From Gemmatimonadaceae bacterium (lineage in GTDB: Bacteria; Gemmatimonadota; Gemmatimonadetes; Gemmatimonadales; Gemmatimonadaceae): DNA of 64,000 nucleotides. Location: positions 6,924 through 70,923 of the forward strand of contig DASSNL010000104.1 in assembly GCA_035688075.1 (NCBI GenBank), written 5' to 3'. This document shows positions 1,314 to 59,925 of the stretch, one piece after another. The position numbers and the translations under genes are program-made. Under the pieces are notes generated by a model, which made no database searches, was not told the DNA's origin, and saw nothing but the letters and a program-made list of their open reading frames with translations. Every line of letters begins with the position of its first letter. Within the stretch, counting starts at the first letter, position 1.

Positions 1314-2492
<1,179 letters not shown>

Positions 2493-2668
2493 GGCCCTCT
2501 CCCCCGAGGTCGTTTACTGCTTCCTGCTTCCTGCTTCCTGCTTCCTTACAGCTCCTGCTTCCTTGCCTTTCCTGCTCTCTGCCGTCTGCCCTCTTCCTTC
2601 CCCTCCTCCCTTTCACCGCGCATCTTCTCTCGCTCGATTTAGAGTTCCGTTTCCCATGGAGGCAGAGC

Positions 2669-3319: not shown

Positions 3320-3326
3320 TTTTAAA

Positions 3327-3425
3327 AGAAAGCAGAAAGCAGAAAGCAGTGAACTGCCTAGGGGTCGATGGCCTTCCCCTACGAGCCGTTCACTGCTTTC
3401 TGCTTTCTGCTTCCTGCTTTCTCCT
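3327..3425. repeat. Heptad-armed palindromic intergenic element, copy E2 (minimal form)
   Basis: GAAAGCA x3 + GTGAAC, core TGCCTAGGGGTCGATGGCCTTCCCCTACGAGCCG, then GTTCAC + TGCTTTC TGCTTTC TGCTTCC TGCTTTC. It fills the gap between the convergent stops at 3319 and 3426 almost exactly. Confidence 0.9.
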
Positions 3426-3758: not shown

Positions 3759-3794
3759 GCTCCCTCCTGGCTACGAATACAGGGAGTAAGAAAC

Positions 3795-3886: not shown

Positions 3887-4492
3887 ATGGAGATGTCTAA
3901 TCGCTCGATGCGTAGCGCAGTGTTCGGGGCGGCGCTAGCCTCGCTGGCGGCGGTTGGCGCGATGGCCGGTACGGCGCCTTCGCTCGCGGCGCAGGTGGAC
4001 AGCAGTGCAGCGCTCCAGGTGGGCCAGAGCGCGCCTGACTTCACGGCGCCGGGTGCGACGCGCTACGGACTGCTGCGCGATCCCGTTTCGCTCTCGGACT
4101 TCAGCGGGAAGACCGTGGTGCTCGCGTTCTTCTACAAGGCGCGAACCAAGGGTTGAACGGTTCAAATGGAGGCGTACCGTGATCAGTACGCCAAGCTTTT
4201 CAACAACGGAAAGGACGTCGCCGTCATCGCCATCAGCGTGGACCCCGACACGGCGCTCGCATCGTGGGCGCACGACGAAGGGTTCCCGATGCTCTTCGTG
4301 AGCGACTCCGGCGGGGCGATCGGACGGAAGTACGGTATCTTCAACCAGAAGGCGGGACTCGACACGAGAGTGGTCTTCGTGATCGCGCCCGACGGCAAGG
4401 TCACGTACCGCGCGATGCCGTTCCGCGAGCTGGTGGCGAGCGCGTACGACGAATTGGGCAGCGCGGTCGCTCGAGCTTCCGGCGGTAACTGA
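3887..4492 (+). CDS. Secreted Bcp/AhpC-TSA family peroxiredoxin with in-frame TGA (4154-4156) at the peroxidatic Cys position; candidate selenoprotein, alternatively a nonsense pseudogene
   Basis: ORFs 3752-4156 and 4166-4492 are in the same frame, separated only by TGA. The joined sequence VVLAFFYKARTKG-[TGA]-TVQMEAYRD aligns with the Bcp motif [17 protein letters not shown] 3887 follows GGAG, and the N-terminus is a signal peptide (AVFGAALASLAAVGAMAGTAPSLAAQ). Confidence 0.7.
4171..4192 (+). promoter_or_regulatory. Hairpin 14 nt downstream of the in-frame TGA; candidate bacterial SECIS
   Basis: GGCGTAC (4171-4177) / GTACGCC (4186-4192) form a perfect 7-bp stem with loop CGTGATCA, which contains GU. 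The position is compatible with bacterial SECIS spacing. Confidence 0.45.
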
Positions 4493-4688
4493 GGGGGAGA
4501 GGGCAGGAAGCAGGAACGGCAGGGAAGCAGGAACGGCGAGGAAGCAGGAAACAGGAAACAGGAAACAGGAAACAGGTAACTGCCTCGGGGTCGGGGGCCC
4601 ACCTCCGGGAGCCGGTACCTGTTTCCTGTTTCCTTTTCTCCCTCTCCCTTCACTCCGGAGGCAGTTCACTGCTCTCTGCTTTCTTCCC
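4493..4688. repeat. Heptad-armed palindromic intergenic element, copy E3 (asymmetric, plus an extra solo half-arm)
   Basis: Long left arm (GGAAGCA/GGAACGG units, then GGAAACA x4 + GGTAAC), core TGCCTCGGGGTCGGGGGCCCACCTCCGGGAGCC, short right arm GGTACC TGTTTCC TGTTTCC. An additional GTTCAC TGCTCTC TGCTTTC half-arm lies at 4664-4684. Confidence 0.85.
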
Positions 4689-4777
4689 GATAGAGCGACC
4701 GACGCACTGACGCGGCGCGGCGCGACTGGAGAAGGCTTGACTCCTCGTGCGACGGGTTGAATAGTAGGCGCCCGGTC

Positions 4778-5632: not shown

Positions 5633-5682
5633 GACCATCGGCTGGAAAAGCCAGCCATCACACCCCCTTTGGAGGAAGGTTC

Positions 5683-8724: not shown

Positions 8725-8762
8725 GCGCCCGCAGAGCAACCCCGACCAGGACATCCAGGACC

Positions 8763-10088: not shown

Positions 10089-10247
10089 GGAGAGTAAAAG
10101 GAAGCAGATAGCAGAAAGCAGAAAGCAGAAAGCAGTGGGCGGCTCGTGGGGGATAGGGCCCTCAACCCCGAGGCCGTTCACTGCTTTCTGCTTTCTGCTT
10201 TCTGCTTCCTTGCCGCCCCTGCTTTCCGCTCTCTCCCCCTCCCTCCC
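10089..10247. repeat. Heptad-armed palindromic intergenic element, copy E4
   Basis: GGAAGCA GATAGCA GAAAGCA x3, core GGCGGCTCGTGGGGGATAGGGCCCTCAACCCCGAGGCCG, then GTTCAC TGCTTTC x3 TGCTTCC and a pyrimidine flank. Lies between convergent stops 10088 and 10248. Confidence 0.9.
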
Positions 10248-11405
10248 CTACATCAGCTCCCGCTGGGCAGCGGCTACACCGCTGCCCAGTTCTACATCTA
10301 CGCCTGCCCGCTTCAGTGTCATCTCGACGCCGGTGAGGGCGCCGAGGAGCATGAGCTCATTGAGGTCGCCGAGGTGGCCGATGCGGAAGGCTCTGCCGCC
10401 GAGCTGACCGAGGCCGGCGCCGAGGGAGAGGTTGTAGTGGCGGTACGCGGTGTCGATGATGGTGCTGGAGTTCGTGGCAGAGGGGGTCATCACGGTGCTG
10501 ACCGTGTCGGAGTAGGCGGCGGGATCGGTGGCACAGAGCGAGAGACCCCACGCCTCCACAGCCGCGCGGCAGGCGCCGGCCAGTCGGTTGTGGCGGGCGT
10601 ACACGTTCTCGAGTCCTTCCTCGAGGAGCATGTCGAGCGCTTCGCGGAGGCCGTAGAGGAGAGTGACGGCCGGCGTGTAGGGGAAGTAGCCCTGCGCGTT
10701 CTGCTGCATCATTGGGCCCAGGTCGAAGAATGCGCGCGGAGAGTGCGCGTTCTCGCGCGCAGCGAGCGCCTTCGGACTTACGGCGAGGATGCCGAGTCCG
10801 GCGGGGAGCATGAAGCCCTTCTGCGACCCCGCGATCGCGAGGTCCACGCCCCAGTCATCCATGCGGAACTCGAGGCTCGCAACGGAGCTCACGCCGTCCA
10901 CGTACAGGAGCGCGGGGTGATTGGCCGCATCGATGGCGCGGCGCACGGCGGCAATGTCGCTGGTGACACCGGTCGACGTCTCGTTGTGCACCACCAGCAC
11001 GCCCTTGATCTCGTGCGCCGAGTCGGCGTTCAGCGCCTCCTCGATTCGATCCGGCGGAACGGCCGCACCCCAGTCGGTCTCGATGACATCCACGCGATAG
11101 CCGAGTCGGCGCGCGCTGTCTATGAAGAGGTGGCCGAACTGACCACCGCGAACGGCGAGTAGCCTGTCGCCGGTGGAGAGCGTGTTCACCAGCGCCGCCT
11201 CCCACATCCCGCTTCCAGTAGCCGGAAAAACGAAGGTCTGTGCGCTCGTGGTGCCGAACACCTCTTTCAGTCTCGGGAGGATGGCGCGCGTGAGCTCGGG
11301 GAACGACGACGACCGGTGATCGTCCGTCGCGCGATGCATGGCGCGCTGGATCCTGTCGGGAGTGTTGGATGGACCGGGAACGAAAAGAAAGTTGCGACCG
11401 GGCAT
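10248..11405 (-). CDS. Class V PLP-dependent aminotransferase (alanine/serine-glyoxylate aminotransferase-like)
   Basis: N-terminal FVPGPSN motif, PLP-lysine region AIAGSQKGFMLPAGLG, and length typical of the AGXT/SgaA family. Confidence 0.85.
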   Translation of the reverse strand: MPGRNFLFVPGPSNTPDRIQRAMHRATDDHRSSSFPELTRAILPRLKEVFGTTSAQTFVFPATGSGMWEAALVNTLSTGDRLLAVRGGQFGHLFIDSARRLGYRVDVIETDWGAAVPPDRIEEALNADSAHEIKGVLVVHNETSTGVTSDIAAVRRAIDAANHPALLYVDGVSSVASLEFRMDDWGVDLAIAGSQKGFMLPAGLGILAVSPKALAARENAHSPRAFFDLGPMMQQNAQGYFPYTPAVTLLYGLREALDMLLEEGLENVYARHNRLAGACRAAVEAWGLSLCATDPAAYSDTVSTVMTPSATNSSTIIDTAYRHYNLSLGAGLGQLGGRAFRIGHLGDLNELMLLGALTGVEMTLKRAGVDVELGSGVAAAQRELM

Positions 11406-11541
11406 GCGGTGCTCCTGGGCTCGTGCTGAGAATCGGATTGTCGAAGATGCGGCCAGCCGGGAGTGCGGCCGGGGCTGGCCGGTGCGGGAACGCCGCTCGC
11501 AAACTATACTGGGCGCGAGACCTCAAGGAGCTCGTTACTCG

Positions 11542-14397
11542 ATGATCCCGCTTGTCACACTGCTGCTCGTCCTGCAGACGTCTACAGGAGCGGCCACGCC
11601 TGCCGCCGGTGTTCAGGATGCCGTATACGCTCCGGATGGCCGGCTCGCGCTGGCGATCGACGGCGACATCTGGGCGCAGCGCGCGGCCGGCGACACCACG
11701 AGATGGATGCGCGTCACCAGCGGTGACGCATGGGATCGAGAACCGGCATGGAGCGAGGATGGCAGATCGCTCGTGTTCGCATCCAATCACAATGGCGATT
11801 CGCGGCTCTATCGCGTGCGACTCGGTGCCACAGATAGTGGGGCGGCCCGCGACGGCGCGACGAGCACTCCCGAGCGGATCACGAGCGCGGATGAACCGGA
11901 GAGCAGCCCGGCGCTCGCGAAGGATGGCACGCTCGCCTTCGTCCGCGGCCGTGGTCCGACGGCTCGGATCTACATCCGCTCCGCGGATGGACGCGAGCGG
12001 CGCCTCACGAAGGCGAAGTCGGGCTCGGAGCGGTGGCCCGCGTTCTCTCCCGATGGCAAGTGGATCGCTTTCGTCAATGTCACCGAGAGCGGGCGGACGC
12101 TTCGAGTCGTCTCGATCACCGGCGACTCGAGCCGCACGATAGTGAGCGATCGCGCCAGTGAGCATCCCTCCTGGTCGCCAGATGGCAGTCGCATCGCATT
12201 CGGCGGCCGGAGTGGGTCGCCGGGCGTGTGGGTGACGACGACCGATGGTGATTACGTGAACCTCGTCAGCGCGCGGCGCGCGGCACCGGCGTGGTCCCCC
12301 GATGGCCGCACTCTGGCTCTGGTGGAGCTTCCACCTCCGCCGCCGGCGTACAACGGCGACCCCGATCGCCTGGGCGATCGCGCCGCGAGTGCCGTCCTCG
12401 AGGGCTCCGGCGCGCTCTGGTTCGTGCCGGCGCCCGCGGCGCCCGCCAGCGGGCGTGCGGCGTCGCTGGCTCTCGATGTGAACCGTCGAGAGAGGAATGC
12501 GGCTCGCTTCAACGCGGCATGGGAGCGAACCGCCCGGCTCTACTACTCCACACCCGATGCATCCACGCGCCGCGCGAAGTGGGAAGCGCTCCGCGATGAC
12601 TTCCGATCGCGCGCACTCGCCGCCAAATCAGATGACGAGCTGGCGAGCGTGGTGCACGAGATGCTGCTCCGACGTCCCCCGCTGCGTGCGCCGGCCACGG
12701 GACGCGCCGCCGTGTCGAGCGCGAACCCGGTGGCTACCGACGCCGGTCTCGAAATCCTGCGCAAGGGCGGCAATGTGGTGGACGCTGCCATCGCCGTGTC
12801 GTTTGCGCTCGGCGTGGTGGAGCCCGACGCCAGCGGGATCGGCGGCTACGGCCAGATGCTCATTCGGCTGGACTCGATGCCGCGCCCCACGCTCATCGAG
12901 TTCATGACGCGCCTGCCTCAGGACGTGCTCACCAACGAGAGCGCTATCCTCGCGAACGGCGGCTACCCCGACGACGGTCCAGTGCTTCCAAACGTCCCTG
13001 GCACAGTGGCCGGCATGTACAGGGCGTGGAAGGAGTACGGGAGCCACGAGGTTTCGTGGTCCGACATCCTTGCGCCGGCGATCCGCGCGGCGAAGGAGGG
13101 TTACGTCGTGAGCGACGGCCTCGCCACGACGCTCGCCACCGAGCGCGAGCACTTCCTGAAGTACGAGGGGAGCAGGGAGCTCTTCTTCCGCAACGGCGAG
13201 CCGCTCCATGCGGGTGACACCTTGCGCAACCCCGACCTTGCCTGGGCGCTCACCCAGATCGCCGACAGTGGTGCAGCGGCACTCTACCGCGGCGCCGTCG
13301 GCAGGCGGATGGTGACGGATCTTCGCGGTCACGGCAACGCGATGCGCGTGAGCGACCTCGCACGCTACTATGCGGCCGAGCGCGATCCGGTGACAGGGAG
13401 CTACCGCGGCTACACGATCTTCTCGAGCGCGCCCCCGGTCTCCGGCGGCGCCACGCTCGTCGCACAACTGAAGATGCTCGAGCAGCTGCCGAAGATCCCG
13501 TCGTACACCGAGGACGCTGCCACGCTGCACGCGATGATCGAGGCGTGGAAGCTCGTCCCGTCGTCACGCGGCCGCATAGCGGATCCCGGTCTCTGGCCGG
13601 TGAACATCACCGCGTACACGAGTCCGGACAGCGCACGTGCTCGGTGGCGCTGCTTCGACCCGCGACGCGCGCTGAGTGCCGAGGAGCTCGAGGGAACAAC
13701 GCCGAAGTGCTCCCGATCGCGGCGGGACGAGAGTCGCGCCGACCAGAGTGCAACGGGCGCGGACTCGAGCGAGAGCTCCGAGCCTGTGCACCGCCATCGC
13801 ACCGGCACGACCGCGTTCACCGTGGCCGATGCCGATGGCAATGTCGTAGCGGTGACGCAGACGCTCGGTACCTGGGGCGGCAGCTTCTACGTCACCCCGG
13901 GTCTCGGCTTCCTCTACAACGACAAGCTCACGTCGTACTCCAGCGACGCCGATGCCTTCGGCAGCCGCGCGCCGTACGCCCGCAACGGCAGCACGATCGC
14001 ACCCACCATCGTATTCCGAGGTGCTGGCTCGAAGCTCCGCCCCGTTCTCGCCGTCGGCGCGGCCGGCAACTCGTGGATCACCTCCGCCGTCTACACCATC
14101 GTAAGTGGAGTCCTCGACCAGAAGCTCGACGTTCAGCATGCCATCGAGCTCCCTCGCTTCCTCCTCACGCGCGAGCGCACCCGTACCAGCCGCGACTTCG
14201 TGATCGAGCTCGAGGACGGCTTCGCCCCGCGCGTGAAGCGCGACCTGGAAACGCTCGGCCATCGCCTCCACTTCATCTCCCTCCCCGGCGAGCTCCGCAT
14301 GGGCTACGCCTCCGCCGTCACCATAGGCGACTCCACGGTAACGGCAGGCGCAGACCCGCGGCGCGCCGGGGCGGCGGGGGCGGTTGGGAGGAAGTAG
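11542..14397 (+). CDS. ggt: Fusion protein: N-terminal TolB-like PD40 beta-propeller + C-terminal gamma-glutamyltranspeptidase
   Basis: ATG 11542 after AAGGAG, with a signal peptide. Repeated PD40 motifs (EPAWSEDGRSLVF, WPAFSPDGKWIAF, HPSWSPDGSRIAF, APAWSPDGRTLAL). The GGT domain follows (VATDAGLEILRKGGNVVDAAIA) with autoprocessing Thr context HRHRTG-TTAFTVADADGNVVAVTQTLG. Confidence 0.85.
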   Translation: MIPLVTLLLVLQTSTGAATPAAGVQDAVYAPDGRLALAIDGDIWAQRAAGDTTRWMRVTSGDAWDREPAWSEDGRSLVFASNHNGDSRLYRVRLGATDSGAARDGATSTPERITSADEPESSPALAKDGTLAFVRGRGPTARIYIRSADGRERRLTKAKSGSERWPAFSPDGKWIAFVNVTESGRTLRVVSITGDSSRTIVSDRASEHPSWSPDGSRIAFGGRSGSPGVWVTTTDGDYVNLVSARRAAPAWSPDGRTLALVELPPPPPAYNGDPDRLGDRAASAVLEGSGALWFVPAPAAPASGRAASLALDVNRRERNAARFNAAWERTARLYYSTPDASTRRAKWEALRDDFRSRALAAKSDDELASVVHEMLLRRPPLRAPATGRAAVSSANPVATDAGLEILRKGGNVVDAAIAVSFALGVVEPDASGIGGYGQMLIRLDSMPRPTLIEFMTRLPQDVLTNESAILANGGYPDDGPVLPNVPGTVAGMYRAWKEYGSHEVSWSDILAPAIRAAKEGYVVSDGLATTLATEREHFLKYEGSRELFFRNGEPLHAGDTLRNPDLAWALTQIADSGAAALYRGAVGRRMVTDLRGHGNAMRVSDLARYYAAERDPVTGSYRGYTIFSSAPPVSGGATLVAQLKMLEQLPKIPSYTEDAATLHAMIEAWKLVPSSRGRIADPGLWPVNITAYTSPDSARARWRCFDPRRALSAEELEGTTPKCSRSRRDESRADQSATGADSSESSEPVHRHRTGTTAFTVADADGNVVAVTQTLGTWGGSFYVTPGLGFLYNDKLTSYSSDADAFGSRAPYARNGSTIAPTIVFRGAGSKLRPVLAVGAAGNSWITSAVYTIVSGVLDQKLDVQHAIELPRFLLTRERTRTSRDFVIELEDGFAPRVKRDLETLGHRLHFISLPGELRMGYASAVTIGDSTVTAGADPRRAGAAGAVGRK

Positions 14398-14588
14398 AAG
14401 CAGGGTTCAGGAGGCAGGGTTCAGGGTTCAGGTACTACAGGTACAAGGAGACAGGAAACAGGAAACAGGGAACTGCCTCGGGGGTGAGGGCTCTCCCCCA
14501 CGAGTCGATACCTGTTTCCTGTTCCCTGTTTCCTGTCTCCTGCAGTTGGCAGTCCCTGAACCCTGAACCCCGTAGTTCTGAACCCTCG
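14398..14588. repeat. Composite palindromic element, copy E5 (GGAAACA-type element nested inside GGGTTCA-type arms)
   Basis: Outer arm AGGGTTCAGGAGGCAGGGTTCAGGGTTCAGGTACTAC, inner arm GGAGACA GGAAACA GGAAACA GGGAAC, core TGCCTCGGGGGTGAGGGCTCTCCCCCACGAGTCGA, then the complementary inner arm and the outer arm CTGAACCCTGAACCCCGTAGTTCTGAACCC. Confidence 0.9.
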
Positions 14589-14591
14589 CGG

Positions 14592-16283
14592 TCACGCCGC
14601 CGACACCACCTCCGCCTCCGGCACCGGCTCCTTCAGATGATCTAGCACGCGCTCGGCGGGGAGGCGTTGCGAGGTGGCGAGCCACATGATCAGGGCGGAG
14701 AAGACCGCCACCACCACGATCGCCCAGCCGAAACCGAGGATGCCGAGGTTGCCGGCGTGCGCCGAGAGGGCCGGGTAGTCGCCGAGCCAGCTGATGAGCG
14801 CGAGGCCGGCCAGCCACGCCACTACCCAGCTCCCCGAGCGGAACTCGAGCGGAGGAGTGGTCTCGCGGTTGCGTGCCTCGTGGAGAACTAGCACGATGTA
14901 GCCGATCAGCACCGCGATGAAGAGCTTCCAGTCGGTGGCCCAGCCGGACCAGTACACGATCAGGTTGGAGGAGAGGAAGGCGAGGTAGGCGATCAGCGTG
15001 GCGGCCGGAAGACGGAAGGGTCGCGCCTGACGCGGGATCTGGCGGCGCATCGCAACCAGGGCCAGCGGACCCGAGCCGAAAGAGAGCACCGTGGCCGAAG
15101 TCACGAAGCCGACCAGCTTCTGCCACCCCGGGAAGGGGAGGAAGAAGATCAGCCCGACCACGAAGGTGACGATCACGCTCACCCACGGCACACCGCGATC
15201 GCTCACCTTGGCCAGCGCCCGTGGCGCGTTTCCATTGCGGCCCATCGCATAGGAGATGCGAGCGGTCACAGTCGTGTAGATGAGTCCCGTGTCTGCCGGC
15301 GAGATGAAGGCGTCGATGTAGAGCAGGATCGCGAGCCAGCTCAACCCCATCACGCTGGCCAATGCAGCCAGCGGACCGTAGGTGGCGGCCACGTTCGAGA
15401 CTCCGCTCGTGAAGCTCGTGCCGATGTTCGCCCATCCGTTACGTAGCGCCTCGTCCGGCAGCGCGCCGATGAAGGCGGTCTGCAACGCGATGTACAGGAC
15501 GCCAGTGATGAGCACCGAGCCGATGATCGCGATCGGCACGTTGCGCTGCGGGTTGCGCGTCTCGCCCGCCAGCTCCACTCCCTGCCTGAACCCCAGATAG
15601 GAGAAGACGATTCCCGCGGTGGCTATCGACGAGAAGACCCCGGTCCACCCGAAAGGCATGAACCCACCGGCCAGCTCGTGACTGAAATTCACGCCGTGGA
15701 AGACCGTCAAGATGAACGAGACGATCACCACGACGATGATCGCCAGCTTCCACCAGACCATCGCGTTGTTGAGCCGCGCGAACCAGCGGATCCCCACCAC
15801 GTTGATCAGACTGAAGAGAGCGAGCAGGCCGGCCGCCACCGCGAAGCCAGCGCCGGTGAGCACCGGCACCCCCTGATCGAGTCGCTGCAGCCAGGGGAGG
15901 TAGTTGGTGGCGTACTGCAGCGCCGCCTCGACCTCGATCGACGTCGTGGACGCCACCGCCAGCCAGGTGATCCACCCGAGCGTGTAGCTCGCGAAAGAGC
16001 CGAAGGCGTAGTGCGGGAACCGCACCACGCCTCCGGACACGGGAAACATGGTCCCGAGCTCCGCGTAGCAGAGCCCGATCAGGATGATCATGACTCCGCC
16101 GATCGCCCACGCTATTACCGAAGCCGGGCCGGCGATCTGCGCCGCGCTGAGCGCGCCGAAGAGCCAGCCCGATCCTATTATCGATCCTACCGCCGTGAAG
16201 AGGAGTCCGACGATTCCGATGTCGCGTCGGAGGCGATGGTCGTCTGCGGCTTCGCGATGGATGACTGCGCCAGTATCTGCCAT
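14592..16283 (-). CDS. APC family amino acid/polyamine permease
   Basis: ATG 16283 preceded by GAGGAG. Multi-TM protein with N-terminal APC motif (FTAVGSIIGSGWLFG). Confidence 0.85.
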   Translation of the reverse strand: MADTGAVIHREAADDHRLRRDIGIVGLLFTAVGSIIGSGWLFGALSAAQIAGPASVIAWAIGGVMIILIGLCYAELGTMFPVSGGVVRFPHYAFGSFASYTLGWITWLAVASTTSIEVEAALQYATNYLPWLQRLDQGVPVLTGAGFAVAAGLLALFSLINVVGIRWFARLNNAMVWWKLAIIVVVIVSFILTVFHGVNFSHELAGGFMPFGWTGVFSSIATAGIVFSYLGFRQGVELAGETRNPQRNVPIAIIGSVLITGVLYIALQTAFIGALPDEALRNGWANIGTSFTSGVSNVAATYGPLAALASVMGLSWLAILLYIDAFISPADTGLIYTTVTARISYAMGRNGNAPRALAKVSDRGVPWVSVIVTFVVGLIFFLPFPGWQKLVGFVTSATVLSFGSGPLALVAMRRQIPRQARPFRLPAATLIAYLAFLSSNLIVYWSGWATDWKLFIAVLIGYIVLVLHEARNRETTPPLEFRSGSWVVAWLAGLALISWLGDYPALSAHAGNLGILGFGWAIVVVAVFSALIMWLATSQRLPAERVLDHLKEPVPEAEVVSAA

Positions 16284-16558
16284 GGTCTCCTCGTTGTGCC
16301 AGCGGCGCGTCCGGATGCCGGTCGAAGCATCCACGGCCACCGCTCGGTGTGCATCAGGGTCGATACAACGGATCATTGCCGCTGTGCACGCGGAGCACAA
16401 GGCGAAATCCATGGGAGTACATATATTTCCCGGGTCGCTGCGCCCGGCCCGCTCGCTCCTTCCGAACGCTTTTCGGGTATCGTGCGTAACTCACTGCGGG
16501 ATGTTCATTCCCGCTGGCGGGTCGTGACAACGTTGTTCTCGTTCACTAGCTTCCGATA

Positions 16559-23747: not shown

Positions 23748-24910
23748 GCATCGATCTTTCGGCATCGAAGCGTCGGATGCCGGCCGAGTGGGAACCGCAC
23801 GCGGCGACGTGGATCGGCTGGCCACACCACGCGCCCGACTGGCCGGGAAAGTTCGAGCCGATCCCGTGGGTGTACGCCGAGATCGTGCGCGCACTGCACC
23901 GGCACGAGCGCGTCGAGATCCTGTGCCACAGCGAGGAGGTGGGTGAGGAGGCGTTGCGGCTGCTGCGCTCCCACGCCGTGGATCTCTCGCGCGTCGGACT
24001 GCACCACGTCGCGACCGACCGTGTCTGGCTGCGCGACTCCGGCCCCACGGCCGTGGTGTCGCCCGAAGGTCGCGTGCACTGGGTGCAATGGCGCTTCAAC
24101 GGATGGGCCAAGTACCCCAACCACGCACGCGACCAGCTCGTGCCAGCTCGGGTAGCCGAGATCAGCGGCCTCCCGCTGGAAGAAGCCGTGCGTCCCGACG
24201 ACGCGGCACCGCTAGTTCTCGAGGGAGGCGGCATCGAGACTGACGGCGCAGGCACGCTCATGGTGACGGAGGAGTGGCTCCTCTCCGACGTCCAGGTTCG
24301 CAATCCCGGCCTCGACCGCGCCGGCTACGAACGCGCCTTCGCGCGCTACCTCGGCGTGGACCGCACGATCTGGCTCGGCGAAGGTTGCGTGGGCGACGAC
24401 ACGCACGGCCACATTGACGACATCGCCCGCTTCACCGACTCTCACACGGTGGTGCTCGCCTACGAGGAGGACCCCGCCGACGACAACCATGCCCGCTCCG
24501 CCGACAACCTGCATCGCCTGGAGCTCGCCGCGCGCACCTTCCCCGGCGGCCTCCGGGTGGTGAAGCTCCCCTTCCCTCGCCCCGTGATCATGGACGGCGA
24601 GCGCCTCCCCGCCAGCTACGCCAACTTCTACATAGCCAACGGCGTGGTAATCGTCCCCACCTTCAACGACCCGAAGGACCGCGTCGCCCTCTCCACCCTC
24701 GCCGACCTCTTCCCCGACCACGAAGTCACCGGCATCCACGCCGTAGACCTCGTCTGGGGATTGGGTACGCTGCACTGCCTGTCACAGCAGGAACCCGCGG
24801 GGAGAAAGCAGAGAGCAGAAAGCAGTGAGGGCCGTGAGGGTTCAGGGTTCAGGGTTCAGGGTTCAGGAACTGCCCGAAGGTCGGGCTCTCGACTCCGAGG
24901 TAGTCACTGA
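23744..24910 (+). CDS. aguA: Agmatine deiminase; C-terminal ~37 aa and the stop are encoded by repeat E6
   Basis: N-terminal MPAEWEPHAATWIGWPH and C-terminal catalytic GTLHCLSQQ motifs. The reading frame continues into the heptad repeats (..RKQRAESSEGREGSGFRVQGSG..). Confidence 0.88.
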   Translation: MSIDLSASKRRMPAEWEPHAATWIGWPHHAPDWPGKFEPIPWVYAEIVRALHRHERVEILCHSEEVGEEALRLLRSHAVDLSRVGLHHVATDRVWLRDSGPTAVVSPEGRVHWVQWRFNGWAKYPNHARDQLVPARVAEISGLPLEEAVRPDDAAPLVLEGGGIETDGAGTLMVTEEWLLSDVQVRNPGLDRAGYERAFARYLGVDRTIWLGEGCVGDDTHGHIDDIARFTDSHTVVLAYEEDPADDNHARSADNLHRLELAARTFPGGLRVVKLPFPRPVIMDGERLPASYANFYIANGVVIVPTFNDPKDRVALSTLADLFPDHEVTGIHAVDLVWGLGTLHCLSQQEPAGRKQRAESSEGREGSGFRVQGSGTARRSGSRLRGSH

Positions 24911-24972
24911 ACCCTGAACCCTGTAGTTCTGAACCCTGATAGTTCCCTGCTCTCTGCTCTCTGCTTTCTCCC
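24799..24972. repeat. Composite palindromic element, copy E6 (GGGTTCA-type nested inside GAAAGCA/GAGAGCA arms)
   Basis: Outer arm GAAAGCA GAGAGCA GAAAGCA, inner arm GGGTTCA x4, core TGCCCGAAGGTCGGGCTCTCGACTCCGAGGTAGTCAC, inner arm TGAACCC TGAACCC TGTAGTTC TGAACCC, outer arm TGCTCTC TGCTCTC TGCTTTC. Confidence 0.9.
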
Positions 24973-25033
24973 ATTCTTTCTCCCCCACCTCCCCAATTCT
25001 TGCACATCCTCTCCCTCGATACTCGGGCAGGAT

Positions 25034-26383: not shown

Positions 26384-26589
26384 GGGGAAGAAAAAGGCAG
26401 AGAGCAGAGAGCAGAAAGCAGTGAAAACCTCCGGGGCCGACGGGGTCAGGTCTTCAATTTCGAGCCGTACGGGCACTGGCCCGTACGGCTCGAAATTGAA
26501 GACCTGACCCCGTCGGCCTGTTCGAGATCTCGGCTATGGAGGGTTTTCACTGCTTTCTGCTTTCTGCTCTCTGCTCTCTGCTTTCTCTC
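26384..26589. repeat. Heptad-armed palindromic element, copy E7, carrying a perfect 40-bp inverted repeat in its centre
   Basis: Arms GAGAGCA x2 GAAAGCA GTGAAAAC / GTTTTCAC TGCTTTC x2 TGCTCTC x2. Inner arms 26435-26474 and 26479-26518 are exact reverse complements with a 4-nt loop (ACTG). Confidence 0.92.
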
Positions 26590-30960: not shown

Positions 30961-31548
30961 GTGCATAGAACACTGTCGCGCCTAGCGCTCGTCGCTGGTC
31001 TCTCCCTCCTCCCCTGCACCGTCGCGGCGCAGCGCGCCCCCGTACAGGAGGAGGGCGCCGTTGCCGAGGCCGACTCCGAGCTCCCACGCCCCTTCGCGAG
31101 CTTCAACGCGTCGGCCCGCTCGCTCCGCGACTCGATCGTCGCGCTCGCCCGCGCGCAGATCGGGAAGCGCTATGTCTACGGCGGTGAGTCGCCCTCGCGC
31201 GGCTTCGACTGCAGTGGCCTAGTTCAGTACATTGCCTCCGCGCTCCATATCCATATCCCACGCACCGCGCGCCTCCAGGCGCACGTGGGCGATTCGATCC
31301 CGCCCGACACTTCGCGCCTCCTCCCCGGCGACCTCCTCACCTTCGGCAACGGCAAGACCATCACCCACATCGGCATCTACGTGGGCGATGGCCGGATGGT
31401 CCACGCCAGCACCGCCGCCGGCAAGGTTATCGAAACGAAGCTCCTCCGCCCCCCGGCGCGGGGAATCAAGCCCTGGCGTGGCGCGAGGAGGTTGGATGTG
31501 GCGGAGGGGGCAGAGGGGAAGCAGGAAGCAGGAAGCAGGAAGCAGTGA
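30961..31548 (+). CDS. NlpC/P60 (C40) family peptidoglycan peptidase; last codons and the stop lie in repeat E8
   Basis: Signal peptide. Catalytic Cys in GFDCSGLVQY and His in ITHIGIYVGDGRMVHAS. The tail ..GAEGKQEAGSRKQ is encoded by heptads. Confidence 0.85.
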   Translation: MHRTLSRLALVAGLSLLPCTVAAQRAPVQEEGAVAEADSELPRPFASFNASARSLRDSIVALARAQIGKRYVYGGESPSRGFDCSGLVQYIASALHIHIPRTARLQAHVGDSIPPDTSRLLPGDLLTFGNGKTITHIGIYVGDGRMVHASTAAGKVIETKLLRPPARGIKPWRGARRLDVAEGAEGKQEAGSRKQ

Positions 31549-31735
31549 ACGACTCGTAATGCAACGTCATCCCCGCAAAAGCGGGGACCCATGTTAGCCA
31601 GACTGAACATGGGTCCCCGCTTTTGCGGGGATGACGACTGTCGGTGTGCAGTTCCTGTTTCCTGCTTCCTGTTTCCTGTTCCCTTGCCGTTCCTGCTTCC
31701 TGCTTCCTGCTTCCTCCTTTCTTCTCACTCCCTCC
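31505..31735. repeat. Heptad-armed palindromic element, copy E8, carrying a 31-bp inverted repeat in its centre
   Basis: Arms GGAAGCA x3 GTGAAC / TGTTTCC, TGCTTCC units. Inner arms 31565-31595 and 31606-31636 (CGTCATCCCCGCAAAAGCGGGGACCCATGTT and its complement) have a 10-nt loop. Confidence 0.9.
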
Positions 31736-32867
31736 TCCGCACCACCGCCTCCGTAAGCAGCACGGCACCGCTGTCAGGGAAATCCAGGCGCGCGAGGGAG
31801 TCGGCGAGGATCACGGCGCGGCTGCTCCGATCGGAGCTGACGCGGCCGGGGGCGCGCTGCTTGGTGGGACGAAGGTGAGCGTGCAGCACTCCGCGTTTCG
31901 TATCGAGGACCGTGCAGAGGATCGCCCCGCGATTGAGCGGCTCCCGGAGGGAGAAGGGGCCGTAGGTGACGAGGTTGCCGAGCGAGTAGGCGATGAGCGA
32001 CTCGTTGCGCCACTCGAGGGCGCGCACCACGTGGGGGCCGTGACCGACCACGAGCTTCGCCCCGGCATCTGTGGCTGCGTGGGCGAAGGCTACGGGGTTT
32101 CCACGCCGCTCCTCGAAGTACACCTCCATGGTGTCGCGCGTGCGCTGAGCAGACCGCCCCTCGGCGCCCAGATGCATCGTCACCACTAGCAGCGGATAGC
32201 GCGCCGCCGCTCGCGCCACGTGACGCCTCACGGCAGCTATGTCGCGCGGATCGGGACCGGTCGAAGTGCTGAAGCCGAGGAAGGCGACGGTGTCGCCGCC
32301 GCGCGTGACAACCGGCGTCGCCAGCGTGTCGACGCCCGTGACGTGCACGCGCGCGCGCTCCAGCAGCTTCACGGTGCGCTCGAAGCCGCGCGCGCCCGCG
32401 TCGCGCGCGTGGTTGTTCGCGAGGTTCCCCACTACCTGCCCGCGCGGCGATATCCTTCGAAGAGCGGCGGCCGCCGCCGGCGGTTGACGCAGCGCGAAGC
32501 AGCCTCGCGCACCGGGCTCGCACTTGGGCTCCTCCACGGGTCCGCTCCCGATCGCGCCTTCGACATTCACGAGCACGATGTCGGCGTCGCTGACGAGCGG
32601 TCGCAGCGGGCGCAGCACCGCATCGGGATTGGGAAGCGCGGGCACCGGACGCCTGAGCCACTCGGACATCTTCGTCGTCCAGGTGGTATCGAGGTTGGTG
32701 CCCAGCGTGACGTCGCCTCCCGCGCAGACTCGCACGCGGTCGCCACTGCCACTTCTCGCGGCAGTGGCCGCATCCTGTCCGGCCGCGGGTGATCCCACTC
32801 CCGGGGCCACGAGGAGTGCTGCCGCGAAGATCGCCGAGCGGAGCAGAAGTGCTCGGCCAGCGATCAC
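31725..32867 (-). CDS. CapA family protein (PGA_cap metallophosphatase-like)
   Basis: Signal peptide and CapA motifs (CAGGDVTLG, LVNVEGA, NLANNHARDAG, VVTMHLGAE, VVGHGPHVV). The start overlaps the bioD stop by 4 nt. Confidence 0.8.
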   Translation of the reverse strand: MIAGRALLLRSAIFAAALLVAPGVGSPAAGQDAATAARSGSGDRVRVCAGGDVTLGTNLDTTWTTKMSEWLRRPVPALPNPDAVLRPLRPLVSDADIVLVNVEGAIGSGPVEEPKCEPGARGCFALRQPPAAAAALRRISPRGQVVGNLANNHARDAGARGFERTVKLLERARVHVTGVDTLATPVVTRGGDTVAFLGFSTSTGPDPRDIAAVRRHVARAAARYPLLVVTMHLGAEGRSAQRTRDTMEVYFEERRGNPVAFAHAATDAGAKLVVGHGPHVVRALEWRNESLIAYSLGNLVTYGPFSLREPLNRGAILCTVLDTKRGVLHAHLRPTKQRAPGRVSSDRSSRAVILADSLARLDFPDSGAVLLTEAVVRRRE

Positions 32868-33613: not shown

Positions 33614-33764
33614 CGGGCCTCCTTACCAAGCGGCGCGCCAAGCCGGCGCGACCGCTTCGTGCAACGAGTGGGATCCAGTATGCAGCGTTGAGATTGCCGG
33701 CAAAGGCGAGCGGAGCGGGCCGGCGCGCAATCCTTAACCTTGCAGCTTTTCCCCGCGCGCGAAA

Positions 33765-33943
33765 GGGGGAGGGGAGAGAGCAGAAAGCAGAGAGCAGAAA
33801 GCAGGGAAACCCCCGTAGGCAGGAGGTCGGTGGCATGCCGCGGGTGCCACCAAGAAACAGGAGACAGGAATGGCCCGTAGGGAGAGGCGCCTGTCGCCCG
33901 AGGCGGTTAACTGCTTTCTGCTCTCTGCTGTCTGCTTTCTCCC
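33765..33943. repeat. Heptad-armed palindromic element, copy E9 (in a divergent promoter region)
   Basis: GAGAGCA GAAAGCA GAGAGCA GAAAGCA GGGAAAC ... GGTTAAC TGCTTTC TGCTCTC TGCTGTC TGCTTTC. The centre contains the hairpin GGTGGCA-N9-TGCCACC and GGAGACA/GGAAACA-like fragments. Confidence 0.85.
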
Positions 33944-34128
33944 GATGCCCCTGTCCGATTCCGGGACGCGCATTCCCAGATGCGGGCAGGGGGGAGAGGA
34001 AGGGAGACGGTGTAAGGCTAGGCAGAACAACAAGTTATGGACGATTCGCCGACGGCATGGGACTTCCTTAAAGGAAGGGCGAGTGGCGATAGTGCCCCTA
34101 CCAATGAACGAACAGGAGAAGGATCAGC

Positions 34129-36232: not shown

Positions 36233-36239
36233 TGGAGAA

Positions 36240-36385
36240 GCGCTGAACAGGAAGCAGGGAGCAGGAAGCGGGAAGCAGTAGCGGCTCTCCAGCGTTGGCT
36301 ACTCCTCCGGGGCCGTTGCTGCCTACCGCTTTCTCCTCTTTGACTTCCTGTTTCCGCGCCTCCCCCCTCCCCCTTCTGCTTTCCC
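36240..36385. repeat. Degenerate heptad-armed element, copy E10 (inside the adaptor-ATPase-permease operon)
   Basis: Left arm GGAAGCA GGGAGCA GGAAGCG GGAAGCA, core-like GCGGCTCTCCAGCGTTGGCTACTCCTCCGGGGCCG, eroded right arm (CTTTCTCC..CTTCCTGTTTCC) and pyrimidine flank CCTCCCCCCTCCCCC. Confidence 0.7.
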
Positions 36386-58162: not shown

Positions 58163-58165
58163 TGT

Positions 58166-58334
58166 GAAAAGAAAGCAGAGAGCAGAAAGCAGTGACTGCA
58201 AGGGTTCAGGAGGCAGGGTTCAGGGTTCAGGTACTACCTCGGAGTAGAGATCTTTCCGCCCGAGGCAGTCACTGAACCCTGAACCCTGTAGCTCTGAACC
58301 CTGAGGTCCTCACTGCTTTCTGCTTTCGACTTTC
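58166..58334. repeat. Composite palindromic element, copy E11 (GGGTTCA-type nested in GAAAGCA arms)
   Basis: Outer arm GAAAGCA GAGAGCA GAAAGCA GTGAC, inner arm AGGGTTCAGGAGGCAGGGTTCAGGGTTCAGGTACTAC (identical to E5), core CTCGGAGTAGAGATCTTTCCGCCCGAGGCAGTCAC, inner arm TGAACCC TGAACCC TGTAGCTC TGAACCC, outer arm TGCTTTC TGCTTTC GACTTTC. Confidence 0.9.
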
Positions 58335-59664: not shown

Positions 59665-59925
59665 GTGAGAGACAGCAGAAAGCAGAAAGCAGAGGGCAGA
59701 GGGCAGAGGGCAGAAAGCAGAAAGCAGTGAAAACCCTGAGGGTTCGGAACTACAGGGTTCAGAACTACAGGGTTCAGGGTTCAGGTACTACCTCGGGGGA
59801 GTGGATCTCGAGCGTCGGGCAGTTCCTGAACCCTGAACCCTGCCTCCTGAACCCTCGAGCAGTTCCTGCTTTCTGAACCCTCGAGCAGTTCCTGCTTTCT
59901 GCTGTCTGCCTTCTGCTTTCACCCG
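59665..59925. repeat. Composite palindromic element, copy E12 (largest; GGGTTCA-type in flipped orientation inside GAAAGCA/GAGGGCA arms, with a 26-nt tandem duplication)
   Basis: Outer arm GAAAGCA x2 GAGGGCA x3 GAAAGCA x2. Inner left arm has CTAC-interrupted GGGTTCA units; inner right arm is CCTGAACCCTGAACCCTGCCTCCTGAACCCT. The unit CTGAACCCTCGAGCAGTTCCTGCTTT is repeated at 59847-59872 and 59873-59898. Confidence 0.9.

What the first reader, a model, noticed from the sequence alone, without database searches (positions are those of the whole stretch)
14398..14588. Russian-doll copy: a GGAAACA-type element sits inside the centre of a GGGTTCA-type element
Seen: the outer 37 nt AGGGTTCAGGAGGCAGGGTTCAGGGTTCAGGTACTAC is identical to the inner left arm of E11 (58200-58236). 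In E5, however, it is followed by a complete GGAGACA/GGAAACA-armed element with the standard core TGCCTCGGGGGTGAGGGCTCTCCCCCACGAGTCGA. The GGGTTCA-type right arm (CTGAACCCTGAACCCCGTAGTTCTGAACCC) then resumes. Inference: one element has inserted into, or been templated at, the apex of another. The hairpin apex may therefore be the preferred target. That behaviour is reminiscent of ssDNA-hairpin-guided mobilisation by HUH/Y1 transposases (IS200/IS605, REP-RAYT).
Basis: partly seen in the sequence, partly recalled or inferred. Interest (0 to 1): 0.65.

Follow-up and report, generated by a model that had tools for sequence, protein, structure and literature searches.

The report
Nested heptamer-armed hairpin repeats between genes
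A 190-base DNA palindrome that exactly fills the gap between two converging genes is built like an onion from two members of a family of hairpin repeats whose arms are strings of 7-base units. Close relatives show these layers being gained, lost and flipped, so it is a fast-evolving REP/MITE-like repeat. The enzyme that moves it is still unidentified.

Summary
Window 14398-14591 is one rod-like hairpin with about 79 nested pairs (RNA -125 kcal/mol, z about -10). It has outer GGGTTCA arms, whose 37-mer is identical to 58201-58237. It has inner GGAGACA/GGAAACA arms and a single core. It fills the gap between the stop codons of two convergent genes.

It belongs to a family of 12 elements in the window. 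These occupy all six clear convergent junctions. Each layer is a tandem (CAGNNNN)n array followed by a linker G(G/T)NACT(G/A)C, and there is one roughly 28-nt core. The window comes from a Gemmatimonadaceae genome.

In metagenomic copies and syntenic relatives, the inner modules always start exactly at the linker, where the core otherwise starts. At another locus, E2, an element 89% identical to E5's inner part is present in one relative. It is absent from the window and from two outgroups, which indicates a recent centre-directed insertion. CGTC-type REP doublets sit at the same centres, and one related contig also carries an IS200-type IS there.

At the E5 locus itself, the sister strain shares the inner layer but has different outer arms. 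Arrays slip, centres invert and arms mirror each other, so one simple insertion does not explain E5.

No HUH/Y1 gene lies in the window, and that link is unproven. Closest described relatives: REP/BIME and the Xanthomonas GGGAATC inverted heptamer arrays. Verdict: a new variant of a known kind.

The parts
14395..14397 (+). TAG stop codon of the upstream PD40/gamma-glutamyltranspeptidase gene (11338-14397). The element starts at the next base.
14401..14430 (+). Outer left arm: CAGGGTT CAGGAGG CAGGGTT CAGGGTT CA. This is the 'A-type' GGGTTCA module, which contains one GGAGGCA variant unit.
   Evidence: Identical to 58201-58231 and to 59825-59855(-). Also present in 35 metagenomic loci.
14431..14438 (+). 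Outer linker GGTACTAC. A linker of the form G(G/T)NACT(G/A)C ends every heptamer array on the side facing the apex.
14439..14445 (+). AGGTACA: a degenerate unit or second linker. It may be a collapsed middle layer. Copies L143 and L132 have AGGTTGA and AGCTTGA at this position.
14446..14467 (+). Inner left arm: AGGAGAC AGGAAAC AGGAAAC A. The next unit, AGGGAAC, runs into the linker.
   Evidence: L155 has the same order of variant units at the orthologous locus and at its E2 locus.
14468..14476 (+). Inner linker GGGAACTGC.
14477..14504 (+). Core hairpin CTCGGGGGTGAGGGCTCTCCCCCACGAG. It is the only core in the element and is homologous to the cores of all family members.
14505..14511 (+). Inner right linker TCGATAC.
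14512..14541 (+). Inner right arm CTGTTTC CTGTTCC CTGTTTC CTGTCTC CT. It is complementary to the inner left arm, with a one-unit shift in register.
14542..14549 (+). GCAGTTGG: a second linker-like piece on the right arm, the partner of 14439-14445. L135 has the same double linker (GCAGTTC GTAGTTCC).
14550..14555 (+). Outer right linker CAGTCC.
14556..14586 (+). Outer right arm CTGAACC CTGAACC CCGTAGTT CTGAACC CT. This is the 'B-type' arm, with a GTAGTT interruption.
   Evidence: E11 (58270-58306) has the same arm with 3 mismatches.
14592..14594 (-). Stop codon (TCA on the plus strand) of the convergent amino-acid permease gene (14592-16412, minus strand).
2419..2600 (.). E1. GGAAGCA arms plus core, inside a decayed outer layer. 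The ABC-ATPase ORF reads into it.
3320..3425 (.). E2. Simple GAAAGCA element between convergent genes. It is the 'empty' state relative to L155.
4493..4700 (.). E3. GGAAGCA/GAAAGCA outer layer with a GGAAACA inner layer. A host half-core is retained on the right side.
10089..10247 (.). E4. Simple GAAAGCA element between convergent genes.
24795..24975 (.). E6. GAAAGCA outer layer, GGGTTCA inner layer, one core.
26384..26589 (.). E7. GAGAGCA arms. The core is split by an 84-nt perfect palindrome at 26435-26518.
31497..31741 (.). E8. GGAAGCA arms. The centre (31565-31636) is occupied by a perfect doublet of CGTC-type REPs.
33761..33961 (.). E9. GAAAGCA arms with an irregular centre. It lies between divergent genes.
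36233..36380 (.). E10. Degenerate GGAAGCA element lying between the ABC ATPase gene and the first MacB-like permease gene.
58163..58334 (.). E11. GAAAGCA outer layer, GGGTTCA inner layer (the 37-mer twin of E5), one core. It lies between convergent genes.
59665..59925 (.). E12. GAAAGCA/GAGGGCA outer layer and GGGTTCA inner layer, inverted relative to E5 and E11. A 26-nt stretch is duplicated on the right arm. It lies between divergent genes.

Best explanation
E5 is a composite member of a dispersed family of extragenic palindromes in a Gemmatimonadaceae genome.

What is shown:
- The basic unit is a tandem heptamer array (CAGNNNN)n, then a linker G(G/T)NACT(G/A)C, then a roughly 28-nt core hairpin, followed by the mirror image of the linker and array.
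- Composite 'onion' copies carry one whole unit at the symmetry centre of another.
- Four further processes remodel the copies quickly. Single units slip in and out of the arrays. The segment between the arms inverts. Whole layers are lost or exchanged. One arm is copied onto the other, which keeps the arms complementary.

What is inferred:
- Onion copies arise when a whole unit enters the centre of another, replacing or splitting the host core.
- E5 is the product of several such steps. Its GGAGACA/GGAAACA+core unit is shared with the sister strain. Its GGGTTCA outer layer is a copy of the module also seen in E11. A collapsed layer lies between the two.
- The resulting rod of about 79 nested pairs sits flush between two stop codons. 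It most likely acts as a bidirectional transcript-end hairpin, blocking read-through or protecting 3' ends, as REP and BIME elements do.

The agent that copies the units between loci is not identified.
For: Family and architecture:
- 12 elements lie in 64 kb. The (CAGN4)3CAG pattern occurs 28 times against 0.01 expected.
- The gap across linker, core and linker is constant at 36-45 nt (40-45 in the window's own copies), and all cores are homologous.

Dispersal:
- The 37-mer is identical at two window loci and its first 31 nt at a third.
- The same module occurs in 35 metagenomic loci and in two other Gemmatimonadaceae MAGs.

Position-specific nesting:
- The 35 metagenomic loci divide into 10 simple copies, 8 nested copies and 5 with other palindromes at the centre. 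The other 12 are cut by a contig end or are not family copies. The junction is always at the linker.
- Remnants of the host core, CTCGA and TCGAG, or a half-core CTCGGGGGTGAGGG, flank the inner modules in E12, E3 and three L155 loci.

Polarised gain:
- Only L155 has the inner element at E2. The window, L269, L270, L271 and L272 do not.
- That element matches E5's inner part at 96 of 108 positions.

Remodelling:
- One unit differs between contigs that are 99.5% identical.
- Centres are inverted at E1 and between L132 and L143.
- A 16-nt stretch, including the stop codons, is mirrored on both flanks in L155.
- Layer content differs at the orthologous E5 locus in four relatives.

Position relative to genes:
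- All six clear convergent junctions carry an element, and the elements abut stop codons.
- In all four elements that lie between same-direction genes, the sense-strand RNA fold is more stable than the antisense fold. This is weak evidence.
Against: - No enzyme, target-site duplication or excision product was seen.
- E5 has no host-core remnant. At its own locus the outer layer, not the inner one, is what differs from the sister strain. Insertion alone therefore cannot explain E5.
- All observed layer combinations could also arise by deletion between linkers in multi-layer master copies.
- A terminator or RNA-stabilising role is inferred only from position and stability. No U-tract follows the hairpin, and 2 of the 12 elements lie between divergent genes.
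- Acidobacteriota and Planctomycetota copies often lie just upstream of start codons.
- Metagenomic contigs can be mis-assembled at repeats. The tail of L269 matches nothing.
Confidence: 0.6

Rival explanations
1. The heptamer-armed hairpins are mobilised as single-stranded DNA by a HUH/Y1 transposase, either a RAYT or an IS200/IS605 TnpA. This enzyme cuts at the linker (CTAC/GTAG or CTGC/GCAG) and integrates into the single-stranded apex of another hairpin.
For: - No target-site duplications are seen, and the junctions at the linker are precise.
- The linkers carry the GTAG/CTAC tetranucleotide that marks the GTAG superfamily of REPs (PMC3733652).
- REP doublets occupy the same centres.
- In contig L139 a PF01797 Y1 transposase gene lies inside a GGGTTCA/GGAAACA element.
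- Close homologues of that gene are common in metagenome assemblies.
Against: - No Y1 or RAYT gene lies in the 64-kb window or in the 21.8-kb syntenic relative.
- The Y1 gene that was found belongs to a normal IS200-type IS. It has its own end hairpins (CCACCGCC..GGCGGTGG) and its own target (TTAAT or TCTAG). The heptamer elements have no such ends.
- Many linkers read CTGC rather than CTAC.
- The outer-layer swap at E5 and the mirrored flanks are not what single-strand cut-and-paste would produce.
Confidence: 0.2
2. There is no transposition. The onion structure grows and shrinks in place. Arrays expand and contract by replication slippage. Layers are deleted between the direct repeats formed by the linkers. 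One arm is copied from the other by template switching within the hairpin. Shared modules spread between loci by ectopic gene conversion.
For: - One unit differs between contigs that are 99.5% identical.
- Arms are unequal in L155 E2, with 4 units against 9, and L158 has an unpaired extra module on one arm.
- At E1 the unit flavour has changed in concert on both arms, with the same order of variants.
- A 16-nt mirrored flank in L155 includes both stop codons.
- The inner inserts of E7 and E8 are perfect palindromes with arms of 40 and 31 nt.
- E5 and L135 both carry a double linker, which looks like a ghost layer.
Against: - An identical 37-mer at loci with unrelated flanks requires copying between loci. 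So does an 89%-identical complete inner element at E5 and at L155's E2 locus. Gene conversion has no homology outside the element from which to start.
- At E2 the polarity is gain of a full unit with its own core, not loss.
Confidence: 0.25
3. The layers are primarily functional rather than selfish. The heptamer arrays are binding registers for a protein with a 7-nt footprint, such as a cold-shock-domain protein, or they form G-quadruplexes. Layer composition is tuned by selection at each gene end.
For: - Heptamer arrays near stop codons, many paired as inverted repeats, are described in Xanthomonas, and the G-rich strand folds into G4 structures in vitro (PMC4692102).
- CspB binds one heptamer per protein (cited in PMC4679880).
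- GGGTTCA-armed hairpins occur in several phyla and in phage-like contigs, again directly after stop codons.
Against: - Only GGGTTCA has G3 tracts. GAAAGCA and GGAAACA cannot form G4 structures.
- In the hairpin the arrays are base-paired, so they are not available as single strands.
- Layer content differs freely between strains with about 8% divergence at the same gene pair, which argues against locus-specific tuning.
Confidence: 0.1

Closest known systems
REP / REPIN / BIME elements (repetitive extragenic palindromes, their inverted doublets and mosaics; mobilised by RAYT Y1 transposases)
   Same: - High-copy extragenic palindromes concentrated at gene 3' ends and convergent junctions.
- A mosaic, modular build with conserved linkers, as in BIMEs.
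- No target-site duplication.
- They serve as landing sites for IS elements.
- Some REP dimers are reported to sit inside longer palindromes (PMC3733652).
- True CGTC-type REP doublets occur at the centres of these very elements.
   Different: - Units are 100-260 nt rather than 20-40 nt.
- Arms are tandem heptamer arrays of several flavours.
- The organisation is concentric, not side by side.
- No RAYT has been found so far.
Xanthomonas GGGAATC heptameric repeats (Rehm et al. 2015, PMC4692102)
   Same: - Tandem heptamer arrays, roughly 90% intergenic, mostly 0-50 nt from a stop codon.
- 70-75 sites per genome are paired in convergent orientation as inverted repeats able to form stem-loops.
- Repeat length varies between species while the type is preserved.
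   Different: - One heptamer type only.
- No linkers, shared cores or nested layers are described.
- They were interpreted as G-quadruplex formers. Here most flavours lack G3 tracts.
Bacterial MITEs that fold into long hairpins (Correia/NEMIS, ERIC, RUP, Nezha)
   Same: - Non-coding palindromic elements of 100-300 nt next to genes.
- They are co-transcribed and affect mRNA stability or termination.
- Size variants arise from internal insertions.
   Different: - MITEs have defined terminal inverted repeats, target-site duplications and a related full-length IS. None of these was found here.
- Their arms are not tandem arrays.
IS200/IS605 family insertion sequences and their palindrome-associated derivatives
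   Same: - Single-strand, hairpin-dependent biology with no target-site duplication.
- One such IS lies inside an element in L139, inserted 3' of TTAAT in the same palindrome type that splits E7's core.
   Different: - The heptamer elements lack the IS's subterminal hairpins and carry no transposase gene.
- They are palindromic from end to end.
Heptamer direct-repeat arrays (cyanobacterial STRR; TAACTGA repeats of Beggiatoaceae, PMC4679880)
   Same: - 7-nt periodicity, intergenic location and spread across distant phyla with no known mechanism.
   Different: - Those arrays are direct repeats, mostly upstream of start codons. They are not paired into hairpins or layered.

Membership tests
REP/REPIN-RAYT system | Short, high-copy, extragenic imperfect palindromes | tested here: inconclusive
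   The elements are extragenic, palindromic and high-copy: 12 in 64 kb. However, they are 100-260 nt long and their arms are tandem heptamers. Only the roughly 28-nt core is of REP size.
REP/REPIN-RAYT system | Conserved GTAG (or CGTC) tetranucleotide tag at one end of the palindrome | tested here: inconclusive
   Linkers read ...ACTAC / GTAGT... in some copies (E5, E11, E12, L137, L141). In many others they read ...ACTGC / GCAGT....
REP/REPIN-RAYT system | A RAYT (Y1/HUH, PF01797) gene in the genome, typically flanked by the REPs | tested here: not met
   tblastn with an IS200 TnpA, and with a RAYT sequence recalled from memory, found nothing credible in the window. No Y1_Tnp gene appears in the gene lists of the syntenic relatives. 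This covers only the 64-kb window and about 50 kb of relatives. The rest of the genome could not be searched.
MITE (derived from a DDE-transposase IS) | Target-site duplication flanking the element | tested here: not met
   No direct repeat flanks the elements. E5 has GTAGAAGC|...|CGCGGTCA and E11 has GACTGCA|...|GAGGTCC. The filled versus empty comparison at E2 shows none either.
MITE (derived from a DDE-transposase IS) | Terminal inverted repeats shared with a full-length IS | not tested
   No full-length IS with heptamer-array ends was seen in any fetched locus. No systematic search was possible.
IS200/IS605-derived palindromic element | Subterminal left-end and right-end hairpins like those of the parent IS, and insertion 3' of a fixed tetra- or pentanucleotide | tested here: not met
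   The IS in L139, L260 and L261 has CCACCGCC(N4)GGCGGTGG hairpins at both ends and the targets TTAAT or TCTAG. The heptamer elements contain neither.
Heptameric SSR inverted pairs (Xanthomonas type) | Tandem 7-nt arrays, intergenic and within about 50 nt of a stop codon | tested here: met
   TRF reports period-7 arrays in all 12 elements. E5 starts 1 nt after a TAG and ends 5 nt before the other gene's stop codon. 10 of the 12 elements abut a gene's 3' end.
Heptameric SSR inverted pairs (Xanthomonas type) | Two arrays of the same heptamer in convergent orientation, forming an inverted repeat | tested here: met
   All 12 elements show this. In addition, several heptamer types are layered, each with a linker and a shared core. 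That has not been described for Xanthomonas.
Intrinsic (Rho-independent) terminator | GC-rich hairpin followed by a U-tract | tested here: not met
   The hairpin is present, but the downstream sequence is CGCGGTCACGCC on the plus strand and GCTTCTACTTCC on the minus strand. There is no T-run. Termination or 3'-end protection without a U-tract remains possible but is untested.

The most novel reading that the evidence does not exclude
These are a previously undescribed class of self-nesting mobile hairpins. A unit consisting of heptamer array, linker and core would be copied specifically into the apex of another extruded hairpin. The machinery would be still unknown: possibly a single-copy domesticated HUH enzyme, or a replication-coupled template-switching process. 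The 7-nt step would reflect the footprint of that machinery. This would also explain the long-noted but unexplained excess of heptameric repeats, and of heptamer-armed hairpins, in distant bacterial phyla and in phage-like contigs.
Probability: 0.2. Interest if true: 0.8.

Novelty: new variant of a known kind. Interest (0 to 1): 0.6.

Why it matters
If the centre-directed nesting is real, this lineage offers a natural system in which every step is visible between strains that differ by only a few percent. Those steps are insertion of a palindromic repeat, array slippage, inversion and arm-to-arm templating.

It bears on three open questions:
- How REP-like repeats spread and persist.
- Why heptameric repeats are over-represented in bacteria.
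- How long perfect palindromes are tolerated in a chromosome.

There are practical consequences too. The elements occupy every clear convergent gene junction in the window. They overlap the 3' ends of ORFs and so add repeat-encoded tails to proteins. They bound a 5.5-kb gene-content difference between strains. They break metagenomic assemblies. They therefore matter for annotating and binning Gemmatimonadaceae genomes.

Tried and rejected
- **Orientation bias.** All 12 elements have the purine-rich arm on the left. I first read this as a replication-linked bias. It is trivial, because a palindrome reads the same on both strands. Orientation can only be defined from asymmetries such as the GGAGGC and GTAGTT bulges or the core loop.
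- **Rfam.** The gathering-threshold scan found only a fluoride riboswitch. No known RNA family covers the elements. No tRNA genes were found.
- **Source genome.** It was not among the 119 genome-contig hits. An exact-protein look-up with my ORF start failed. The source was identified only as Gemmatimonadaceae, through homologues.
- **Target-site duplications.** None found.
- **Y1/RAYT searches.** tblastn found nothing in the window. The one RAYT-like hit, L019 1871-2266, lies 5.7 kb from its GGGTTCA array in a MAG labelled cyanobacterium.
- **Consensus fold of cores.** RNAalifold on a MAFFT alignment of 20 cores returned no structure. Indels put the two arms out of register, so this is uninformative rather than evidence against a hairpin.
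- **Possible empty site at E3.** L269 looked like an empty site, but its last 50 nt or so match nothing and are probably an assembly artefact at the repeat.
- **E7-type palindrome in viruses.** It is absent from the viral contigs.
- **Literature string search.** Searching for GGGTTCA arrays gave only primer coincidences.
- **G-quadruplex as the unifying property.** Rejected, because most flavours lack G3 tracts.
Full report
**1. The observation**

- The outer 37-mer AGGGTTCAGGAGGCAGGGTTCAGGGTTCAGGTACTAC is exact at 14402-14438 and at 58201-58237.
- Its first 31 nt recur at 59825-59855 on the minus strand. Shuffled sequence gives 0 matches.
- The core is at 14474-14508 and the GGGTTCA-type right arm at 14556-14585.
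- The whole stretch folds into a single rod of about 79 nested pairs. As DNA it gives -62.1 kcal/mol (z -9.1). As RNA it gives -125.3 on the plus strand (z -10.3) and -127.2 on the minus strand (z -12.7).
- It fills exactly the space between the TAG of a PD40/gamma-glutamyltranspeptidase gene (ending at 14397) and the stop codon of a convergent amino-acid permease gene (14592-14594).

**2. The family in the window**

Twelve such elements lie in the 64 kb. I call them E1 to E12 in order along the window; the finding is E5. They start at about 2419, 3320, 4493, 10089, 14398, 24795, 26384, 31497, 33761, 36233, 58163 and 59665.
- Their arms are tandem heptamers that all fit CAGNNNN: CAGAAAG, CAGAGAG, CAGGAAG, CAGGAAA, CAGGAGA, CAGGAGG, CAGAGGG and CAGGGTT. 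The pattern (CAGN4)3CAG occurs 28 times against 0.01 expected.
- Each array ends, on the side facing the apex, with a linker G(G/T)NACT(G/A)C.
- The centre is a core of about 28 nt. The distance from the last CAG to the first CTG is 40-45 nt in every simple window copy and 36-45 nt across all 20 collected copies. The cores from the window and its relatives are homologous, with consensus CAGGAACTGCCTCGGGGTnGAGATCTCTCCCnCGAGGTAGTACCTG.
- Because the elements are palindromes, the fact that the purine-rich arm is always on the left is trivial. It is not an orientation bias.
- Several window copies are layered. E6, E11 and E12 have GAAAGCA outside GGGTTCA. E3 has GGAAGCA/GAAAGCA outside GGAAACA. 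E5 has GGGTTCA outside GGAAACA.
- E7 and E8 carry foreign perfect palindromes in the core. E7's has 40-nt arms and E8's has 31-nt arms, and E8's is a doublet of CGTC-type REPs.

**3. Position relative to genes**

Pfam-supported gene calls show that all six clear convergent junctions carry an element: E2, E4, E5, E7, E8 and E11. Two of five divergent junctions do (E9, E12), and four of about thirty same-direction junctions do (E1, E3, E6, E10). Three ORFs run into the elements: 1083-2492, 23744-24910 and 30961-31548. No T-run follows the hairpins, so they are not canonical intrinsic terminators. In all four same-direction cases the sense-strand RNA fold is 3.6-9.5 kcal/mol more stable than the antisense fold. 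This is a weak hint of selection at the RNA level.

**4. Origin and distribution**

The window is from a Gemmatimonadaceae genome. The closest named permease homologues carry that label.

- Most are direct arrays.
- 17 have both arms. They come from Acidobacteriota, Planctomycetota, Ktedonobacterales, Wenzhouxiangella, Halothiobacillus and Gemmatimonadota.
- L024 and L068, both Gemmatimonadaceae MAGs, carry the same A-type arm.
- L068 is nested like E5, with GGGTTCA outside GGGATCA/GGAAGCA and one core.

The same 17-mer hits 98 stretches of viral contigs. Seven of them have both arms, again directly after stop codons. Not every Gemmatimonadaceae contig has these elements. L258 has none in 11.7 kb, and L259 has hairpins with 9-mer arms instead.

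**5. Catalogue of nested and simple copies**

A metagenome scan with the 28-mer of the A-type arm gave 35 loci.
- In 10 loci the linker is followed directly by a core.
- In 8 loci it is followed by another heptamer array. The combinations include GGGTTCA over GAAAGCA over GGAAACA in L126 and L133, GGGTTCA over GGAAACA in L132 and L143, GAAAGCA over GGGTTCA over GGAAACA in L135, GGGTTCA over GGAGGCA in L134, plus L139 and L151.
- In 5 loci it is followed by other palindromes.
- The remaining 12 are cut by a contig end or are not family copies.

In all 8 nested copies the inner array starts immediately after ACT(G/A)C. Both orders occur, GAAAGCA outside GGGTTCA and the reverse, so there is no fixed hierarchy. 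No copy has a complete inner hairpin sitting off-centre in one arm. There is never more than one core.

Host-core remnants flank many inner modules. CTCGA and TCGAG flank GGGTTCA modules in E12 and in L120-L124 and L135. A half-core CTCGGGGGTGAGGG lies on one side of GGAAACA modules in E3 and at three L155 loci. E5 itself has no such remnant. Instead it has a second linker-like piece on each arm, as L135 does. This looks like a middle layer whose array has shrunk to zero units.

**6. Orthologous loci**

Syntenic contigs from close relatives were recovered.
- L155 has 92% nucleotide identity in the permease gene.
- L156 and L157 have 88%.
- L158 and L159 have 83%.
- The resulting tree is ((window, L155), L156/L157), L158/L159.

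The gap between the GGT gene and the permease gene holds the following:
- Window: GGGTTCA, then the ghost linker, then GGAGACA/GGAAACA, then the core.
- L155: GAAAGCA/GGAAGCA, then the same GGAGACA/GGAAACA arms, then a REP doublet in place of the core.
- L156/L157: GAAAGCA, then a core split by a perfect REP doublet, with no GGAAACA layer.
- L158: GGGTTCA outermost, then GAAAGCA, then a core, plus an unpaired extra module on one arm.

So the inner layer is shared by the two sister strains and absent from the next relative. That is consistent with entry into a GAAAGCA host. The outer GGGTTCA layer of E5 is not shared with the sister. The history of this locus therefore includes exchange or loss of outer layers as well as an inner insertion.

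Other loci compared between the window and L155:
- E6 has the same outer arms but GGGTTCA inside in the window and GGAAACA inside in L155.
- E1 has an orthologous core that is inverted. The unit flavour has changed in concert on both arms, with the same variant order.
- E3 and E4 correspond to a single element in L155. The 5.5-kb IclR-SusC/D block lies between them in the window.

**7. A polarised gain**

At E2 the window is a simple GAAAGCA hairpin. So are the contigs L269 and L270, which encode an identical flanking protein. L155 has a complete GGAGACA/GGAAACA+core element inside the same arms. That element matches E5's inner part at 96 of 108 positions.

Two outgroups lack the layer. L271 (85% protein identity) is simple. 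L272 (84%) has a REP doublet instead. The most parsimonious reading is a gain in the L155 lineage, at the centre of a pre-existing hairpin, with loss of the left half of the host core.

**8. Other processes**

- L269 is 99.5% identical to window 1571-4501 but has five CTGCTTC units in E1's right arm where the window has four. This is slippage.
- L132 and L143 are orthologous loci whose inner element is inverted between them.
- In L155 the element between AhpC and the aminotransferase gene is flanked on both sides by the same 16 nt, GCGGGAGCTGATGTAG. This includes the last codons and the stop codons of both genes. In the window the AhpC side reads GGCGGTAACTGA. One arm has evidently been copied onto the other.
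- Such templating would also explain the perfect palindromes in E7 and E8. It would explain how a change on one arm comes to appear on both.

**9. The HUH/Y1 question**

- No Y1 gene lies in the window or in the syntenic relatives.
- In L139 an IS200-type TnpA (PF01797) lies inside a GGGTTCA/GGAAACA element. It is inserted 3' of TTAAT in the same palindrome type that splits E7's core.
- Close homologues are common in metagenome assemblies. They belong to ordinary ISs with their own end hairpins and their own targets.
- This shows that hairpin centres attract single-strand transposons in this lineage. It does not show that a Y1 enzyme moves the heptamer elements. The rest of the genome could not be searched.

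**10. Comparison with what is known**

- REP, REPIN and BIME elements share the genomic niche, the modular mosaic build, the lack of target-site duplications and the role as IS targets. REP dimers inside longer palindromes have been noted (PMC3733652).
- Xanthomonas GGGAATC heptamer arrays lie within about 50 nt of stop codons. In 70-75 cases per genome they are paired as inverted repeats (PMC4692102). This is the closest described relative of the arm structure.
- I found no description of concentric layers of different heptamer arrays with linkers and a shared core, of their turnover between strains, or of these sequences themselves.

**11. Verdict**

Centre-directed nesting is real and recent at one locus.
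- E5's own history is more complex than a single insertion, and the enzyme is unknown.
- I classify it as a new variant of a known kind, an extragenic palindromic repeat. It is of moderate to high interest for people who work on bacterial repeats and mobile DNA.

Noticed in passing
window 29185-29251 (-): A fluoride riboswitch (RF01734, 61.7 bits) lies directly upstream of a crcB gene (28695-29177, minus strand). A DUF190 gene follows at 29318-29761.
   Followed up: partly
window 36468-57250 (+): Eight consecutive paralogues of about 800-830 aa lie here. The one scanned has MacB_PCD and FtsX domains. They sit between two ABC ATPase genes and have no heptamer elements between them.
   Followed up: partly
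window 4684-10159 vs L155 16196-16412: A 5.5-kb block (an IclR regulator, a TonB-dependent receptor and SusD) is present in the window and in L271 but absent from L155. In the window it lies between two complete elements, E3 and E4. L155 has a single element there. The hairpins mark the boundary of a gene-content difference between strains.
   Followed up: partly
L155 16170-16440: The same 16 nt, GCGGGAGCTGATGTAG, occurs in inverted orientation on both flanks of the hairpin. It covers the last codons and stop codons of both convergent genes (AhpC and the aminotransferase). The palindrome has extended into coding sequence.
   Followed up: yes
window 1083-2492, 23744-24910, 30961-31548; L155 GGT gene end at 12011: Several ORFs read into the heptamer arrays and stop inside the element. 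The proteins therefore carry short repeat-encoded C-terminal tails that differ between strains.
   Followed up: partly
window 26435-26518; L139 (reverse complement) 470-1170: An 84-nt perfect palindrome has a conserved outer part, GACGGGGTCAGGTCTT(C/T)AATTTCGAGC. The inner part differs between copies but is perfectly symmetric in each. In L139 an IS200-type IS is inserted into one copy after TTTAAT, and a second copy is nested beside it.
   Followed up: partly
window 31565-31636; L155 11860-11960; L156 7740-7830; L271 2310-2400; L272 4750-4823; L024 6340-6375: A family of CGTC-tagged REPs, CGTCATCCCCGC(N4)GCGGGGA..CATGTT, usually occurs as perfect inverted doublets (REPIN-like). In every case seen it is inserted in the core of a heptamer-armed hairpin.
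   Followed up: partly
L160-L257 (IMG/VR), e.g. L227 3370-3450 and 4470-4610, L177 4190-4400: GGGTTCA arrays occur in 98 stretches of viral contigs. Some form hairpins directly after stop codons. L223 2660-2750 has GGGATTA arms around a lone (CTGAACC)3.
   Followed up: partly
L259 1440-1640 and 10300-10420: A related Gemmatimonadaceae-like contig has hairpins whose arms are 9-mer arrays, (CAGGATGGA)n and (ATCCTGTCA)n, instead of heptamers.
   Followed up: no
L158 7700-7984: One arm carries an extra GGGTTCA/GGGGTCA module with no partner on the other arm. Two alternative pairings are therefore possible. This may be an intermediate state, before the two arms have been made alike.
   Followed up: no
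window 59839-59901: E12's right arm contains a 26-nt tandem duplication (CCTGCTTTCTGAACCCTCGAGCAGTT, 2.4 copies). It repeats a junction between layers.
   Followed up: no
L001, L043, L045, L057, L062, L074, L079: In Acidobacteriota and Planctomycetota the GGGTTCA-armed hairpins often abut start codons or ribosome-binding sites rather than stop codons. Their units degrade towards the apex. In window E1 it is the outer layer that is decayed.
   Followed up: no
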